Of a stretch of DNA of 61,742 nt, positions 42,001 to 48,000 are shown piece after piece. The stretch lies in the IMG/VR virus record IMGVR_UViG_646311924_000011. One strand, given 5' to 3'. A program made the position numbers. This DNA comes from a virus. Taxonomy: Duplodnaviria > Heunggongvirae > Uroviricota > Caudoviricetes. Every line of letters starts with the position of its first letter. Position 1 is the first letter of the stretch.

Positions 42001-45000
42001 TGCTGATGCAGTGCTGGTTGCCACGACGCCGGGGCAGGTTTACGGCGATCCGGTTGACCCTGGCTGGTCGGGATTTTACTGGATACGTTTTGTTAACGCG
42101 GCAGGAGTGAAAGGTCCATGGAATGCTGAAAAAGGCACTCAGGCACAAACACAGATCGGCGTGAAGGCCATCATTGACCAGATCCGCGATGAGGCTGCAA
42201 AGTCGCCGGTTGTGTCCGAGCTGCGTAAAGAAATAAAAAACGCGCAGGGGCAGGCTGTAAAGGATGCTGCAATTAAGACAACCGAAGTTGTAGGGACTCT
42301 CAGGGAAGAAACGACAAGAACGATTGGTGGTATTGAAACCCGCATTAGCACACTGGATTCGTCAACCAGTGAATCGCTTAATGAGGTCGACAAGCGCATC
42401 ACTAAATTGGATAAAGAAGGCGGTGAAGCTTTTCTTGCAATGTGGTCAAAAAAAGCGGGAGTTGATGGTATCACTGCGGGGATCGGGATTGTCGCCGGAA
42501 AAGACAGTGAAGGCAGGCCTGTAAGTCAGGTTGCAATTTCTGCGTCGCAGTTGTTTGTCTTTGACCCGAATAATCCGGATAACACAGCCTATCCGTTTGC
42601 GGTATCAGGTGGCAAGGTAGTGATCCCGAAAGCGATGATTTATGACGCGGTGATTGAAACACTGGTGTCGCGGAAGGTTGTGGCGGATGAGGTAAAAGCC
42701 GGGGTAAGTATCACTTCGCCAGTTATCCGGAGTGCCGTTATTCAGAACGGAAACTTTCAGGTTGATTCTCAGGGTAACCTGAATATTGGAGGCCTTTTCA
42801 GTGTTACGTCACAAGGGCAACTGACAATTCGTTACTCTAATCAGAATGTAGGACTGGTGATCCGCAATGATAAAATTGAGGTTTATGACCAGAATGGACG
42901 ACTGGCTGTTCGCATAGGCAGATTACGCTGATCAGGAGGTGAGTATTGGAATACGGTTTTGCCATTTATAACAGAAATAACGTTAATGTTACGGGCGTGC
43001 TGACTCCAGTATTTTTCCTGGACAGATTTACAGCGGAGTCTGGCTCAAAGACGTACACTAATAAACCCGACGGGAAATCATTGCAGGCTGTATGTTGTTT
43101 ATTTCCCTGGAATAATGTATTTGCGGATCGGAAAGTACCGAAGATAACCATTAATGACAATACGGTGACGTGGTCGAATCTTGAGCAGGGTATGGGATCT
43201 TATATTTATACATTCTGGGGATAAGTGTTATGTACGGTTTGAGCATTATGAAGCCGGATGGCAGCGTATGGATAAGTCCAGGTTTTACGCCGCAGTGTCT
43301 GATCAACAAAGGCACCATACCGGCGACTGAAAAGTCTTTTTTTAAAACATCAATCCCGTCAGGCAAAAGTTGTTTTTTCTTTATCAGAACAGAGAAGAAG
43401 GCCGATGTCATGTACACGCATGAACAGATTGATGGATATCATGCACTAAGGCTTCATGTAATTGTCAGGGGAACGAACCCTGGTGTTACGACGGTTTATG
43501 CTTTCGCGAATATGGTTACTCCACCTTCTGAGTATGGTATCGCCATGTATAACCCGGACGGTGAGATGATTTATCATGGCGAAATGATGCTGCTTGACGC
43601 GAAGTTAATACCTGTTGATATCAAATTTGAAAAGGACCTTGGATATCCATGCGCAATCATGCCTGCACTGGTCGGGTATTATAACTGGAAAAGAACTCCT
43701 TATGATCGACCGATTTATACCACATCCACTGGTGCTACAGGAAATAAAATATATTCCTGTGAGCATTATTCCGGTGGTGCAACATGGGATATTCGAAAGC
43801 CGTATATAGATAAGGTCCTGGTTATTAATACATCAGTATATGATTAGTTGAAGCGAGTCTTTAATATTCATTTAAAATGTCTAAAAAGATGTATTATTAA
43901 AAAGTTTAGCGTGTTATCTGAATACAGGATATCTTAAATGAAGAGTATAGCAACACTGGTTGTGTGTGCAATCTCCGGGATTGCCTGTGTAAATTTATCT
44001 GCACATGCAGCAGAAGGAGAGCATACAATTTCTCTGGGGTATGCGCACTTTCAGTTTCCGGGACTGAAGGATTTTGTAAAGGATGCGACTGCTCATAACA
44101 GGGAGACTTTCAGTCATTTCGTCAACAGAAACTACTTTTCTTCATTGGGCGAATATACAGATGGTCGGGTCAGTGGATATGAAGGCAAGGATAAAAATCC
44201 ACAGGGCATTAATATCAGGTATCGCTACGAGATAACGGATGATTTTGGCGTTATCACCTCTTTTACATGGACGCGTTCTCTCACTAACTCACAGACATTT
44301 ATTGATGTGCAGTCAGCCGATCATACCAGGAAGATTAAGAATCCGGCAGCTTCTGCCAGAACGGATATCAGGGCGAATTACTGGAGTCTGTTAGCGGGGC
44401 CTTCATGGCGGGTTAATCAGTACATGAGTTTATATGCGATGGCAGGGATGGGCGTTGCTAAAGTTAGCGCTGACCTGAAAATTAAGGACAATATTAACAG
44501 TAGTGGCGGATTTTCTGAAAGCAACAGCACGAAAAAAACCTCCCTTGCGTGGGCTGCAGGTGCACAGTTTAACCTGAATGAGAGTGTTACACTGGATGTG
44601 GCTTACGAAGGTTCCGGCTCTGGCGACTGGCGCACGAGTGGCGTTACTGCTGGCATTGGCCTGAAATTCTGACCTGTATCCGGTAACCGTTTACTACCCG
44701 CTGTGATGGCGGGTTTTTTATTGCCCGTACAGGGCAAAAACCGTAAATTATGCGTGGGTGCCTTTCGGCTGATGGCTGGAGGGTGAACCTGAAGGCCTGA
44801 TGTGGAAAGGCCCCGAGTCAACTTAACGTTAACCCGAGGCCCTAACACTTCGTACCTTAAGCAAGTAGAAGGTTAGCGCCTCTCTGTAAAAGGAGTCAAG
44901 CGCTATGTCGCAAAAATCGCTTATCACCGTCACAATTTGCATGACGGTTATCTTCACCATCTGGATGTTGCACGGTTCACTGTGTGAGTTCCGGCTGAAT

Positions 45001-48000
45001 TTGTGGGGAGCGGAGTTTGCGGCGTTCTTACAGTGTAAGCAGTAGGAAAACCGCGACGGGGACGAGAGTCCCCGTCAACTGGTTGCTGAGGTTCAGCCGA
45101 TATGGCACCCGTTTCAGGTGAGAGAATGAACGATAAAATTCTCTGGTATATGCAGCGTGTTGTGAGAAATTCCCGCAACCCTGAATTTATGAATGAAGTT
45201 AAAGACGCCTGCCTTAAAAAGCAGGCGTTTTGTTTTGAGGCACCTGATGGCTTTTTGGTGCTGCGTTCTGTGCTCAGTGCTGATGGTATCCCTTATGTTC
45301 TGGTGTTGCTGGGCGTGTGTACGGGGAGTAACAGCGTTGAGCGTTACCTGCCGGAGGTGAAGACATTAACCCATCTGGCTGGCGGACGCTGGGCTGAGTT
45401 CCATACGGCAAGGCGGGGATTTATCCGGCTGGGAAAACGACTGGGCTTTGAGCGAATGCCGGATGATGAGGATGGCTTCATGGTGTTCAGGATAGCGGTC
45501 TGACTGCTACAGTTTTCATCATTGTGTTTAAACCAACATTGTAATTCACATTCTGACCCTGCTCCGGCAGGGTTTTTTGTTATCCAGGGGGCCATTATGG
45601 GTGGAAGTAAAGGCGGTGGTGATACCAAAGTAAAACCAACAGCAGCGCAAATAGCACAGGAAGAAGTGGCCTGGAAAGGGTGGCAGGATTACAAAAATAT
45701 CCTCCGCCCGGCTGAAGATAACTTCATGGAAAAGGTCGATGACCTGAACAGTGAGCAGCAGTACGACAATATTGCTGGCACCACAAATCTGGGGTATCAG
45801 AAACAGTTTGGCGAAGCACGGAAGGAGCTTGCGGGTAATCTTGCTCAGTCCGGCGTTGACCCATCCAGTGGTCGTTTTAATGCGGTAATGAATGCGAACC
45901 AGAGTGACCAGGTAACCGGGCAGATTGACACAACCACACGGGGGCAGGTATCGCAGGCAGATAAGTATGTTGCCGGGCTACAGGATGTTGCTGCTCTCGG
46001 TTCTGGTCAGAAGGTGGATGCGTTACAGAGTTTTAACTCTCTGGCAGACAGCAGTCTGGCAAAAGCTAAATCGGATGCACAGGCGGCGTTTACGAAACAG
46101 CAGGGGCGAGCCTCTCTTGTTGGCGCTGGTCTGGGTGCGGCAGGTGCATATGCGATGCATAAGGCTGGCGGTAGCGGAGGAAGTGGCGGTGCTAAAACAC
46201 CTGGCACCGGCGCTAATGCCATTCAGCATCAGGCTCAGAACTGGAGACTGTGATTATGGAGTACGGTAAATACGAAACACTTGCAAGATACGGTTATACC
46301 GGAGCAGCCCGCCCTCAGGGGGACTGGCAGACATCCGCAGCGCTGACACGCCAACAATACGACGACTGGCGAACCAGATATTTGCCCCGCGTGGCAAGGC
46401 TGGCTGACCTTGGGGAGAACAACAGTCTGATGAATGCACAGCTTGCACGGGTGGGAGGCCTTGCCACTTCCAGTCTCCGTACAGCGCAGATGGCGCAGGA
46501 TAACCAGATGGCGAGATACGGGGTAAACCGCCCGGATAATCCCGACAGTAATACGCTGGGGTTACGTAATGCCCTGGCAATTGCTGGCGCGAAAAATGGT
46601 ATCCGTGAAGCCGAACAGGATCGCCAGATGAATATTCTGACGGGGGCTTCTGCACCGGCAAGACAGAAACTGAGTGTTGGCGGCCAACTGGTGGCAGCGT
46701 AAGGGGGCAATATGGGATACGGTTTACTGGATATTGCAAATCAGTCGCGGCGTGAGGCATTACAGGGAATAAGTGACGCAGACAGACGACGTGAAGAAAT
46801 TGAGGCTGCGAACAAACAGATGGCGGCGCAACAGAAAGCGCAGAACAAGCAGAATATCGGTACGGGCATTGGTACGGGGGCGGCTATTGGCGCATCCGTT
46901 GGTGGTCCTGTTGGTGCTGTTGCTGGAGCAGTAATTGGCGGCATTGCTGGTTCTTTGTTTTAAGGAGTGGTGAATGAGCGGATTTGCACAGGGGTTACTT
47001 GCCGGATTCAGCACCGTTGACCAGGCAATGACCCGTCGTAAGGAGCTTGGTCTGCGTGAAGCACAGCTTGCCCGGCAACAGAAAAATAACGAGCGCGATT
47101 TTGAGTTTGCGCAGTCTCAGTTTGAACATAATAAAAACGTTGATCAGCGGAACTTTGATTACAGAGCCAAAGTTGACGACCGTAATTATGCACTGAAGGA
47201 AAGGGAGTTTAACGCTAACCAGAATTACCGGAATGCGTCACTGGGTATGGAGCAGCAGCGACTCCAGTTGCAGAAATACAACCAGCGACGGCTTGAGTAT
47301 AACGATATGATTGCCCATAGCCAGCCACTAATGGAAGCGCTTGGAAAAGCAATTGAGGCTGGCGATCAGGAGGCTGCAACGCGTCTGTTCGGGCAGCTGC
47401 CAAAGGGACATCCATTAATTCTTATGTCAAACGAAGGCTATGCAGCGAAAGCGGGTCAGGCCGTGATCAACCTGCAAAAAATCTTTGGTGATAAGCCGGA
47501 CATGGCGATCGATTCGCTGAATACCCCGGAAAATCTCGATGTGCTTTCCGGCGTGTTTGCCCCGGAACTACAACAGCGTATTGGCATGCCTGATTCAACC
47601 GGGGACAAAACGATAAAAGAGGCCAGGATTGGCAGTATCGTACCAGCGCAGCAGGAAGGGTACGTACTTATTGGCCTTGATCTCACATACAGCGATGGCT
47701 CCACCGCGCATAAACCTGTAACAGAATACGGCAGTGCGCACCCTGATGATCAAACCGTGCTGGCGATACCCGTTGATAAGGCTATCGCTCAGGTCAGGGA
47801 TCGCAGCAAATTTGCAGAGATATCGAAAAATTATGGTTATTTTATGCCGAAGCAGCAGGGACTTTCTCTGAAAGAGCTTCAGAAGGGGGCCAGCAACGTA
47901 GCGGCGGACGCGATCAAGAATGGCGGTAATGCTCAGGCTGCGGTGGATGAATATTATGCTGCGACTGGTTCACAACCGCATCAACAGAAAATTCAGCAAC

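What the first reader, a model, noticed from the sequence alone, without database searches (positions are those of the whole stretch)
44724..45100. Unannotated hokA-like type I toxin locus between lom and the internal-protein genes
A 46-aa ORF (44905-45045) missing from the ORF track encodes a Hok/Gef-type peptide (TM helix then SLCEFR...AEFAAF), with a good SD and a 3' 8-bp-stem hairpin typical of hok mRNA ends. The about 180-bp upstream leader could carry the antisense Sok-like RNA on the opposite strand. Such toxin-antisense pairs can stabilise the prophage or act in phage exclusion.
Basis: partly seen in the sequence, partly recalled or inferred. Interest (0 to 1): 0.6.

Follow-up and report, generated by a model that had tools for sequence, protein, structure and literature searches.

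The report
Second Hok toxin locus in Stx2 phage
The 46-codon ORF is a real Hok-family membrane toxin gene with the folded mRNA and antisense-RNA promoter typical of hok/sok modules; it is already annotated and catalogued, and reported toxic, so it is not a discovery.

Summary
Window 44905-45045(+) encodes a 46-aa peptide that passes Pfam HOK_GEF (33.2 bits, cut-off 22). [quoted passage not shown]

The window is a 933W/VT2-Sakai-type Stx2 phage, and the locus is 100% identical in those phages. The ORF is missing from the 1999 933W record, but RefSeq annotates it as 'Hok/Gef family protein' (WP_000078907.1). The exact peptide is entry 72_1589 of a 2025-26 Hok catalogue preprint. It was cloned there and is not among the three of 45 tested homologues reported as non-toxic.

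It is not hokW-sokW. That characterised locus lies elsewhere in this window, at about 57630-58030 on the minus strand. The phage therefore carries two Hok modules.

Two points appear undescribed in the papers I found:
- The locus has no mok reading frame, which the R1 paradigm requires.
- The predicted Sok recognition segment (44844-44867) is the most variable part among otherwise near-identical Stx-phage copies.

No transcript or regulatory data were found for this locus. Verdict: already known kind and member, low to moderate interest.

The parts
44696..44720 (+). Intrinsic terminator of lom (stem-loop plus T-run). It marks the upstream edge of the hok module.
   Evidence: Terminator scan. 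Sequence similarity between different genomic contexts begins just after it, at ATTGCC.
44721..44749 (+). Predicted weak hok promoter: -35 TTGCCC (44721-44726), 17-nt spacer, -10 TAAATT (44744-44749).
   Evidence: Read. ATTGCC and TAnAnT are kept in prophages of unrelated context. The match is 8 of 12 to consensus, so the strict scan did not list it. No transcript evidence.
44756..45110 (+). Predicted full-length hok mRNA (about 355 nt).
   Evidence: The 5' end is the start of the Rfam RF01794 match. The 3' end is the end of the conserved GGCACCC element and of cross-context similarity. MFE -155.4 kcal/mol, z -6.74. The structure is kept across 45 homologues.
44756..44772 (+). tac-like 5' element GGGTGCCTTTCGGCTGA. 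It can pair either with the 3' fbi element or locally with GGAAAGGCCCC (44804-44814).
   Evidence: The MFE pairs it with 45093-45110. The RNAalifold consensus pairs it with 44804-44814. It is invariant in 45 homologues.
44800..44863 (-). Predicted Sok-like antisense RNA (about 60-64 nt): a 20-nt single-stranded 5' tail, a 16-bp hairpin, then UUUCC.
   Evidence: Fold -31.3 kcal/mol, z -5.74. The shape matches the predicted sokW RNA of the same window. Both ends are inferred, not measured.
44870..44899 (-). Predicted Sok promoter on the minus strand: -35 TTGACT (44899-44894), 18-nt spacer, -10 TAACCT (44875-44870).
   Evidence: AGGTTAGCGCCTC is invariant in 45 homologues. The same AGGTTA element was mutated by Takada et al. 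to silence sokW (primer YO-421 compared with the sequence).
44844..44867 (.). Sok-tail / target segment. It is the most variable stretch among Stx-phage copies.
   Evidence: Pairwise diversity is 0.34 and 0.23 here. Elsewhere most windows are below 0.07, with lesser peaks of 0.18, 0.24 and 0.13.
44876..44885 (+). GCGCCTCTCT, an anti-Shine-Dalgarno segment. CUCU pairs with the GGAG of the hok SD in the closed forms.
   Evidence: Pair table of the MFE. Accessibility modelling.
44892..44895 (+). hok Shine-Dalgarno GGAG.
   Evidence: Modelled probability of being unpaired: 0.01 full-length, 0.31 after 3' trimming, 0.01 with the Sok site blocked.
44905..45045 (+). hok-family toxin ORF, 46 aa plus stop (cluster 72, peptide 72_1589 of the Hok catalogue).
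45016..45025 (+). UUUGCGGCGU inside the coding region. It pairs with the start-codon segment AUGUCGCAAA (44905-44914).
   Evidence: helix 10, 99% of cells paired. Both sides are nearly invariant, so there is no covariation evidence.
45055..45076 (+). Stable 3' stem-loop (9 bp, GAGA loop). Presumed stop point of 3' trimming.
   Evidence: Four of its nine pairs show compensatory changes (helix 16).
45083..45110 (+). 3' tail. UUGCUGAGGU (45083-45092) pairs with the Sok-target region. The fbi-like UCAGCCG (45093-45099) and GGCACCC (45104-45110) pair with tac.
   Evidence: Helix 6, whose 3' arm spans 45079-45092 and includes this segment, has four covarying pairs. Helix 1 (GGGUGCC with GGCACCC) is 99% paired and invariant.

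Best explanation
This is a complete hok/sok-type type I toxin-antitoxin module. It is the second one in this Stx2-converting phage, separate from hokW-sokW.

Core model:
- A weak promoter makes a hok mRNA of about 355 nt, whose 5' end (tac-like) pairs with its 3' end (fbi-like).
- In this closed form the Shine-Dalgarno is buried and the antisense target is paired with the 3' tail, so the RNA is neither translated nor bound by the antitoxin.
- Slow 3' trimming back to the stable hairpin at 45055-45076 would open the RNA.
- A short unstable antisense RNA, read from the minus strand at about 44863-44800, then pairs with the leader and keeps the toxin off.
- When antisense synthesis stops, the 46-aa peptide is made, inserts in the inner membrane and collapses membrane potential.

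How it differs from plasmid R1 hok: there is no mok frame. I infer that the antisense RNA acts directly through mRNA structure. Binding the 5' arm of the target hairpin frees the GCGCCUCUCU segment, which re-occludes the hok SD. RNase III cleavage of the duplex probably also contributes.

Status of each step:
- Shown here: family membership of the peptide, conservation of the folded mRNA, absence of mok, conservation of both promoters.
- Taken from the literature: toxicity of this peptide on over-expression.
- Inferred: the transcripts and their ends, 3' processing, the anti-SD switch, and the biological role. The role is most likely the same as hokW, with Hok made after prophage induction and assisting lysis.

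The confidence of 0.85 applies to the core claim, a live Hok-family type I toxin-antitoxin module with a cis-antisense antitoxin. I put the mok-independent anti-SD switch at about 0.35 and the lysis-assisting role at about 0.4.
For: Identity of the locus:
- Pfam HOK_GEF above its cut-off.
- PHROG 251, E 2.8e-24.
- RefSeq name 'Hok/Gef family protein'.
- The exact peptide is 72_1589 in the Hok catalogue. It was cloned as LRP157, and 42 of 45 tested were toxic. The three non-toxic ones are other entries.

mRNA evidence:
- The Rfam hok-leader model RF01794 matches 44756-44918, E 9e-6.
- The MFE closes 5' to 3', z -6.74.
- On 45 distinct homologues, 93.2% of cells are paired against 35-43% when partners are slid.
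- 19 pairs have changes on both sides against 7.8 +/- 1.5 in shuffles, 0 of 500 reaching the observed value.

Antisense evidence:
- The -10 block is invariant and identical to the validated sokW -10.
- The predicted RNA has the Sok shape, z -5.7.
- Diversity peaks exactly at its recognition tail.

Coding constraint:
- dN/dS 0-0.58, with 7 synonymous and 0 non-synonymous differences within the Stx clade.
- 91 of 93 copies have 46 codons.

Structural switch: SD accessibility is 0.00-0.02 (full-length), 0.03-0.31 (trimmed) and 0.00-0.02 (trimmed with the Sok site blocked) in 8 homologues.

The module boundaries coincide with the -35 box and the fbi element in four unrelated genomic contexts.
Against: - No transcript data for either strand at this locus were found.
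- The promoters match consensus poorly: the hok promoter 8 of 12, the Sok -10 only 3 of 6. The strict scan found none.
- Rfam RF01794 is below its gathering score (35.6 against 59).
- There is no intrinsic terminator after the fbi element, so the 3' end is inferred from conservation only.
- The tac/fbi helix is invariant, so it carries no covariation evidence.
- The tested structure was derived from the window's own sequence, which favours it in the slide control.
- In R1, mok translation is mandatory for Hok synthesis. A locus without mok could therefore be translationally silent.
- The anti-SD switch rests on thermodynamic modelling alone, and the opened state reaches only 0.03-0.31.
- The toxicity assay in the preprint used a foreign SD and over-expression. 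It is a preprint, and I did not see its Figure S4.
Confidence: 0.85

Rival explanations
1. The locus is a translationally silent or decaying hok copy. The ORF and RNA elements persist, but without a mok frame the toxin cannot be translated. K-12 has several chromosomal hok loci that are inactive.
For: - No ORF with ATG, GTG or TTG, nor with CTG or ATT/ATC/ATA, runs through the hok SD or start in the window.
- Mutating the mok start codon abolishes Hok toxicity in R1, and translation up to the hok SD is described as mandatory.
- The K-12 hokA locus, the nearest named relative, is disrupted by IS150.
Against: - The peptide is under purifying selection: dN/dS 0-0.58, with 0 non-synonymous against 7 synonymous changes within the Stx clade.
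- 91 of 93 copies keep 46 codons.
- The SD, both promoters and the mRNA fold are conserved across prophages of four different contexts.
- The recognition segment diversifies while everything else is held constant. That is hard to explain for a dead locus.
- Most homologues lack mok, so its absence is a trait of the clade and not a recent lesion.
Confidence: 0.07
2. The peptide is a phage late-gene accessory membrane protein, made mainly from antiterminated late read-through transcripts. Its own mRNA folding is the only control, and no functional antisense RNA exists.
For: - The ORF is co-directional with the late tail genes and with lom.
- The promoter-like elements are weak.
- HokW in the same phage is produced only after induction and aids release.
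Against: - The minus-strand -35/-10 pair is conserved, and the -10 block is invariant in 45 homologues.
- The same element is functionally required in sokW.
- The module is also found outside late operons: after ogr at the end of P2-like prophages and in an O157 island next to ure. It keeps its own promoter region there.
- An intrinsic terminator separates it from lom.
- Diversity concentrated in the antisense recognition tail implies selection on an RNA-RNA interaction.
Confidence: 0.06
3. The ORF is a chance open reading frame in an intergenic spacer with fortuitous hairpins.
For: It is short (46 codons) and was not called in the original 933W annotation.
Against: - The Pfam hit is above the curated cut-off.
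- There are hundreds of conserved copies.
- Purifying selection acts on the peptide.
- RNA structure z -6.74, with covariation.
- Published toxicity of the exact peptide.
Confidence: 0.01

Closest known systems
hok/mok/sok of plasmid R1 (parB), the paradigm type I toxin-antitoxin system
   Same: - A small Hok peptide with one transmembrane helix and the conserved LCE motif.
- An mRNA closed by 5' (tac) to 3' (fbi) pairing.
- A stable 3' hairpin upstream of the fbi tail.
- A cis-encoded antisense RNA promoter inside the leader, with its -35 box overlapping the hok SD.
- An antisense RNA built as a single-stranded 5' tail plus a long hairpin.
- A target presented on a hairpin with a conserved GAGGC...GCCUC stem.

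   Different: - Only 30% peptide identity, and 46 aa against 52.
- No mok reading frame. The position of the mok start is occupied by CCCTAAC and all frames are closed.
- The leader is about 149 nt, against 173 nt in R1 by the numbering quoted (hok start codon at G176).
- No separate terminator hairpin after fbi.
- Carried by a phage, not a plasmid.
hokW-sokW of Sakai prophage 5 / 933W (Takada et al. 2021, PMC8621323)
   Same: - It lies in the same phage genome, in this window at about 57630-58030 on the minus strand.
- Same family and architecture.
- Identical antisense -10 element, TAACCT.
- Both are carried by the Stx2 prophage, so they may be activated together on induction.
   Different: - A different locus, 13 kb away on the opposite strand.
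- HokW is 51 aa and 35% identical.
- hokW has an upstream in-frame ATG in the mok position.
- hokW passes the Rfam gathering score (113.5 bits), while this locus does not (35.6 bits).
- The recognition tails differ: cognate duplexes are -37 to -40 kcal/mol, non-cognate -13 to -19.
- hokW-sokW has Northern, Western and deletion data. I found none for this locus.
E. coli chromosomal hokA (cluster 93 in the Hok catalogue)
   Same: - The closest named Hok: best NCBIfam hit and 43% identity.
- Shared motifs: PQK/SQK N-terminus, W in the helix, SLCE, and E(F/L)AAFL-C-K at the C-terminus.
   Different: - Below the HokA equivalog cut-off (38.4 against 89 bits).
- It falls in a separate 60%-identity cluster, 72.
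- 4 residues shorter.
- Located on prophages, not at the cspA-glyS chromosomal site.
Hok cluster 72 of Escalera-Maurer et al. (bioRxiv 10.1101/2025.08.07.668861)
   Same: The exact peptide is member 72_1589, flagged as a high-abundance cluster. It was cloned and tested for toxicity. The P2-like variant 72_1621 matches the homologues found after ogr.
   Different: Nothing differs at the peptide level. That work deliberately did not analyse Mok, Sok or the mRNA structure, so the RNA features described here are not covered by it.
tisB/istR-1 and other mok-less type I systems (from general knowledge, not tested here)
   Same: The antisense RNA binds well upstream of the toxin's ribosome-binding site and acts indirectly, without a coupled leader ORF.
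   Different: They are unrelated in sequence. tisB uses a ribosome standby site, and nothing here tests for one. My model invokes release of an anti-SD segment instead.

Membership tests
Hok/Gef toxin family (Pfam PF01848) | The peptide matches the family profile above the curated cut-off. | tested here: met
   33.2 bits against gathering 22, E 4e-8, profile positions 6-42 of 42. PHROG 251, E 2.8e-24.
Hok/Gef toxin family (Pfam PF01848) | Conserved residues M1, C16, T18, L30, C31, E32, E41 of the Hok logo. | tested here: met
   M1, C12, T14, L26, C27, E28 and E37 are all present, and all seven are invariant in the alignment with Hok-R1, HokW and HokA.
Hok/Gef toxin family (Pfam PF01848) | The peptide is toxic when expressed. 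| not testable with these tools
   Literature only. The exact peptide 72_1589 was cloned (LRP157). 42 of 45 homologues were toxic, and the three non-toxic ones are 19_179, 60_1482 and 69_1540. Preprint, over-expression with a foreign SD.
hok/sok type I TA locus (R1 paradigm) | Long-range pairing of the mRNA 5' end (tac) with the 3' end (fbi). | tested here: met
   GGGUGCC/GGCACCC and CGGCUGA/UCAGCCG close the MFE. Helix 1 is 99.4% paired and helix 2 is 89% paired in 45 homologues. These positions are mostly invariant, so support comes from conservation and not from covariation.
hok/sok type I TA locus (R1 paradigm) | A conserved, unusually stable overall mRNA fold. | tested here: met
   z -6.74. 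93.2% paired against 35-43% when slid. 19 doubly changed pairs against 7.8 +/- 1.5, 0 of 500 shuffles.
hok/sok type I TA locus (R1 paradigm) | A cis-encoded antisense Sok RNA with its own promoter inside the hok leader. | tested here: inconclusive
   A conserved -35/-10 pair lies on the minus strand, and the -10 is identical to the experimentally validated sokW -10. The predicted RNA is Sok-shaped. No transcript evidence is available.
hok/sok type I TA locus (R1 paradigm) | A mok reading frame that overlaps the hok start and is translationally coupled to it. | tested here: not met
   In the window all three frames are closed 15-44 nt upstream of the hok ATG, with no canonical or near-cognate start. 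Only 19 of 46 homologues have any start-containing ORF through the hok start, and the start positions are inconsistent.
Rfam RF01794 'sok' (in practice the hok leader) | Score at or above the gathering threshold. | tested here: not met
   35.6 bits against 59, although E 9.2e-6 and full model length 1-157. hokW in the same window scores 113.5.
HokA (NCBIfam NF007290 equivalog) | Score above the equivalog cut-off. | tested here: not met
   38.4 bits against 89. It is the nearest named relative but not an orthologue.
hokW-sokW of Sp5 | The same locus and peptide as characterised by Takada et al. | tested here: not met
   Their hokW primers map to 57840-57860 on the minus strand. HokW is 51 aa and 35% identical.

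The most novel reading that the evidence does not exclude
Cluster-72 Hok loci, including this one, are regulated without mok. The Sok-like RNA would control translation through an RNA switch that releases an anti-Shine-Dalgarno segment. Its recognition tail would diversify rapidly, so that the many co-resident prophage copies (up to 9 per E. coli genome) and hokW-sokW stay insulated from each other. In addition, the second Hok in Sp5/933W would contribute to induction-triggered lysis. It would then have partly masked the phenotype of the published hokW-sokW single deletion.
Probability: 0.3. Interest if true: 0.45.

Novelty: already known. Interest (0 to 1): 0.25.

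Why it matters
Practical point: Stx2 phages of the 933W/Sp5 type carry two Hok toxin modules, not one.
- The only functional study of Hok in these phages deleted hokW-sokW alone. It saw a modest effect: a lysis delay of about 40 min and a two-fold lower phage yield.
- The second locus was still present in those strains, because VT2-Sakai is 100% identical to the window here. It could have buffered the phenotype.
- Lysis and release of the induced prophage are what deliver Shiga toxin, so anything that tunes them matters for this pathogen.

Mechanistic point: a widespread, well-conserved Hok clade without mok would be a natural test case for how much of the R1 paradigm is general. 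The catalogue authors explicitly left that question open.

None of this makes the locus a new kind of system.

Tried and rejected
1. I first assumed the locus was the published hokW-sokW. This was rejected when the published primers mapped to 57840-57860 on the minus strand and the peptide lengths differed.

2. I looked for mok in all frames, including near-cognate starts, and found none in the window.
- An upstream ATG at 44800 (GATGTGG) is in the hok frame here and stops at 44824.
- In some homologues a frame shift by indels lets that ATG run through hok. This is inconsistent across the clade, so I do not call it mok.
- A 24-codon GTG ORF (44802-44876) is broken by indels in homologues.

3. 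I tried to reconstruct the ancestral K-12 hokA locus by removing IS150, for a leader comparison. The remaining leader is too short and rearranged to be useful.

4. The strict sigma-70 scan found no promoter on either strand. Promoters were therefore assigned by homology and by the sokW mutagenesis data.

It was rerun with an alignment.

6. The scan of one genome per species gave only 6 loci. Three of them lie in implausible hosts (Xanthomonas, Planococcaceae, Vagococcus) and are probably contamination.

7. Literature searches found no mention of this locus near lom in 933W, no antisense RNA reported here, and nothing relevant in an O157 genome-association paper.

8. I could not find the catalogue's Table S1 row for this peptide, because the stored file is truncated. 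Whether cluster 72 was already in T1TAdb therefore remains unknown.

Full report
**What is there.**
The window is a 933W/VT2-Sakai-type Stx2-converting phage. The stretch 44680-45130 is 100% identical to 933W (AF125520), VT2-Sakai and many other Stx phages. It is also found in about 1,700 of 5,426 complete E. coli genomes.

Between lom (43938-44672, Pfam Ail_Lom) and the L0129 homologue lies the ORF 44905-45045(+). It encodes MSQKSLITVTICMTVIFTIWMLHGSLCEFRLNLWGAEFAAFLQCKQ.
- It passes Pfam HOK_GEF (33.2 bits, cut-off 22).
- It matches PHROG 251 (E 2.8e-24).
- Its nearest named NCBIfam family is HokA, but it scores below the equivalog cut-off (38.4 against 89).
- All seven residues reported as conserved in more than 80% of Hok peptides are present.

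The 3' stem has 9-10 bp, the leader is 149 nt, and the unit extends to 45110.

**It is already known.**
- The 1999 933W record leaves the gap unannotated.
- RefSeq/PGAP calls the ORF 'Hok/Gef family protein', WP_000078907.1.
- A 2025 phage record calls it 'MokW-like host killing'.
- The exact sequence is seen on at least 1,000 contigs, the counting limit of the tool, under those names.
- The peptide is entry 72_1589, in a high-abundance cluster 72, of the Hok catalogue of Escalera-Maurer et al. (bioRxiv 10.1101/2025.08.07.668861).
- That group cloned it as plasmid LRP157. The text states that 42 of 45 tested homologues were toxic and names the three non-toxic ones, none of which is 72_1589.

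It comes from a preprint and used over-expression.

**It is not hokW-sokW.**
Takada et al. (PMC8621323) characterised hokW-sokW of Sakai prophage 5. Their hokW primers map to 57840-57860 on the minus strand of this window. Rfam RF01794 also scores 113.5 bits there.

HokW is 51 aa and only 35% identical to the present peptide. This phage therefore carries two Hok modules. The catalogue preprint reports that 3.5% of Hok-encoding phages carry two homologues.

One technical note. The Rfam 'sok' model matches the same strand as the hok mRNA at both loci. Its strand therefore does not give the orientation of the antisense RNA.

**Extent and anatomy of the module.**
Homologues occur in four unrelated settings:
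- after lom in Stx phages;
- after ogr at the end of P2-like prophages;
- between gpJ and a tail-fibre gene in another lambdoid prophage;
- in an O157 island next to ure.

Similarity between these settings starts at ATTGCC (the -35 box, 44721) and ends at GGCACCC (45110). Within that unit I find the following.
1. A weak plus-strand promoter, TTGCCC-17-TAAATT, placing the 5' end at G44756. That is where the Rfam match begins.
2. A 5' element GGGUGCCUUUCGGCUGA that is complementary to UCAGCCG...GGCACCC at 45093-45110. This is the tac/fbi arrangement of hok mRNAs.
3. The 355-357-nt RNA folds to about -154 to -155 kcal/mol, z -6.74, and is closed by that pairing.
4. A further long-range helix joins the leader segment 44854-44868 to the 3'-tail segment 45079-45092.
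5. A 9-bp hairpin lies at 45055-45076.
6. The start-codon segment pairs with UUUGCGGCGU at 45016-45025.

I tested this structure on 45 distinct homologues.
- 93.2% of cells are standard pairs, against 35-43% when partners are slid by 1-3 columns.
- 19 pairs have changes on both sides, against 7.8 +/- 1.5 in shuffles. None of 500 shuffles reached the observed value.
- The leader/3'-tail helix and the 3' hairpin each have four covarying pairs.
- The tac/fbi helix is invariant, so it is supported by conservation only.
- The structure was derived from the window sequence, which biases the slide control in its favour.

RNAalifold prefers an alternative in which tac pairs locally with GGAAAGGCCCC (44804-44814). 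In that form a hairpin with the stem GAGGCCCUAAC/GUUAGCGCCUC presents the antisense target. Two mutually exclusive partners for tac are the behaviour described for R1 hok mRNA.

**The antisense RNA.**
On the minus strand, TTGACT (44899-44894), an 18-nt spacer and TAACCT (44875-44870) form a promoter-like pair.
- The block AGGTTAGCGCCTC is invariant in all 45 homologues.
- The same AGGTTA element was changed by Takada et al. to abolish sokW expression. This follows from primer YO-421 compared with the window sequence.
- Transcription would start near 44862.
- The predicted 64-nt RNA has a 20-nt single-stranded 5' tail, a 16-bp hairpin and UUUCC (-31.3 kcal/mol, z -5.7). The predicted sokW RNA has the same shape.
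- Neither promoter reaches the threshold of the strict consensus scan.
- I found no transcript data. The RNA is predicted, not shown.

**Departure from the paradigm: no mok.**
In R1, translation of mok up to the hok SD is mandatory. Here every frame is closed 15-44 nt upstream of the hok ATG. None contains a canonical or near-cognate start.

Among 46 distinct homologues, only 19 have any start-containing ORF running through the hok start. The start positions are inconsistent.

The peptide is nevertheless under purifying selection.
- dN/dS is 0-0.58.
- Within the Stx clade there are 7 synonymous and 0 non-synonymous differences.
- 91 of 93 copies have 46 codons.

A silent locus is therefore unlikely.

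Thermodynamic modelling in eight homologues gives the probability that the SD is unpaired.

| mRNA state | Probability SD is unpaired |
|---|---|
| Full-length | 0.00-0.02 |
| Trimmed to the 3' hairpin | 0.03-0.31 |
| Trimmed, antisense target blocked | 0.00-0.02 |

In the last state the released GCGCCUCUCU segment pairs with GGAG. This suggests, but does not prove, direct structural control without mok.

**Variable recognition segment.**
Among 18 distinct Stx-phage copies that encode the same or a nearly identical peptide, diversity is 0.34 and 0.23 in 44844-44867, the predicted Sok tail and its target.
- Lesser peaks lie in the loop of the Sok hairpin (0.18), in the spacer upstream of the SD (0.24), and at 44968-44982 in the coding region (0.13).
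- Most other windows are below 0.07.

E. coli genomes carry up to nine copies, and one viral contig has two modules in tandem. Selection against cross-talk is a reasonable reading, but recombination between alleles could give the same picture.

The tails of the two loci of this window differ. Cognate duplexes are -37 and -40 kcal/mol, and non-cognate ones are -19 and -13.

**Function.**

The only data for this phage concern hokW-sokW.
- sokW disappears after mitomycin C.
- HokW appears in the inner membrane in a RecA-dependent way.
- Deleting the locus delays growth arrest by about 40 min and halves phage yield.

By analogy I rate 'made on induction, assists lysis' as the most likely role for the second locus. 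It is co-directional with the late operon. Antiterminated read-through would then both supply hok RNA and collide with the Sok promoter. This is inference only.

The published deletion strains still carried this locus, because VT2-Sakai is identical here.

**Verdict.**
This is a real, intact member of a well-known family, annotated in current databases, catalogued and reported toxic. The novelty class is 'already known'. What remains of interest is the absence of mok, the variable recognition segment, and the presence of two Hok modules in a medically important phage.

Noticed in passing
window 57630-58030 (- strand): The experimentally characterised hokW-sokW locus lies here. Rfam RF01794 scores 113.5 bits, the published hokW primers match 57840-57860, and an upstream ATG at 57917 is in frame with hokW, in the mok position.
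   Followed up: yes
window 44756-44918 (+) and 57855-58029 (-): The Rfam family named 'sok antitoxin' (RF01794) matches the strand of the hok mRNA leader at both loci, ending at the hok ATG. Its strand cannot be used to orient the antisense RNA.
   Followed up: partly
window 45102-45503 (+): The L0129 homologue is annotated from ATG 45102, which overlaps the fbi element. The PHROG 610 match begins at residue 9, so the real start may be ATG 45126.
   Followed up: no
window 20197-20443 and 20550-20755 (+): There are three tRNA genes (Rfam hits of 72.5, 53.6 and 70.1 bits), followed by a strong STnc100 sRNA match (158 bits).
   Followed up: no
window 60651-60739 (-): An Rfam sRNA-Xcc1 match lies above gathering (69.1 bits) near the end of the window.
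   Followed up: no
L062:1878-2641: An IMG/VR prophage contig carries two cluster-72 hok modules in tandem, 121 nt apart. A terminator-like hairpin (GCCCGCAATATGCGGGCTTTTTT) lies between them, and the two peptides differ.
   Followed up: partly
L009, L010, L012 (genome-contig hits): Copies of this E. coli prophage Hok (100% or 76% identical) appear in assemblies labelled Xanthomonas pisi, a Planococcaceae MAG and Vagococcus sp. These are probably contaminating enterobacterial DNA.
   Followed up: no
window 45205-45228 (both strands): A 10-bp palindromic hairpin flanked by T-runs on both strands lies inside the L0129 homologue ORF. It looks like a terminator in both directions and is covered by two weak, probably chance, Rfam hits (BSnc120, GlmZ).
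   Followed up: no
window 44883-44896: Stx-phage copies fall into two versions of the stretch between the Sok -10 and the hok SD: CTCTGTAAAAGGAGTCAAG, as here, and CTCCACTCAGGAGGCAAG. The window's version has one extra base, giving a better -35 (TTGACT) but an 18-nt spacer.
   Followed up: partly
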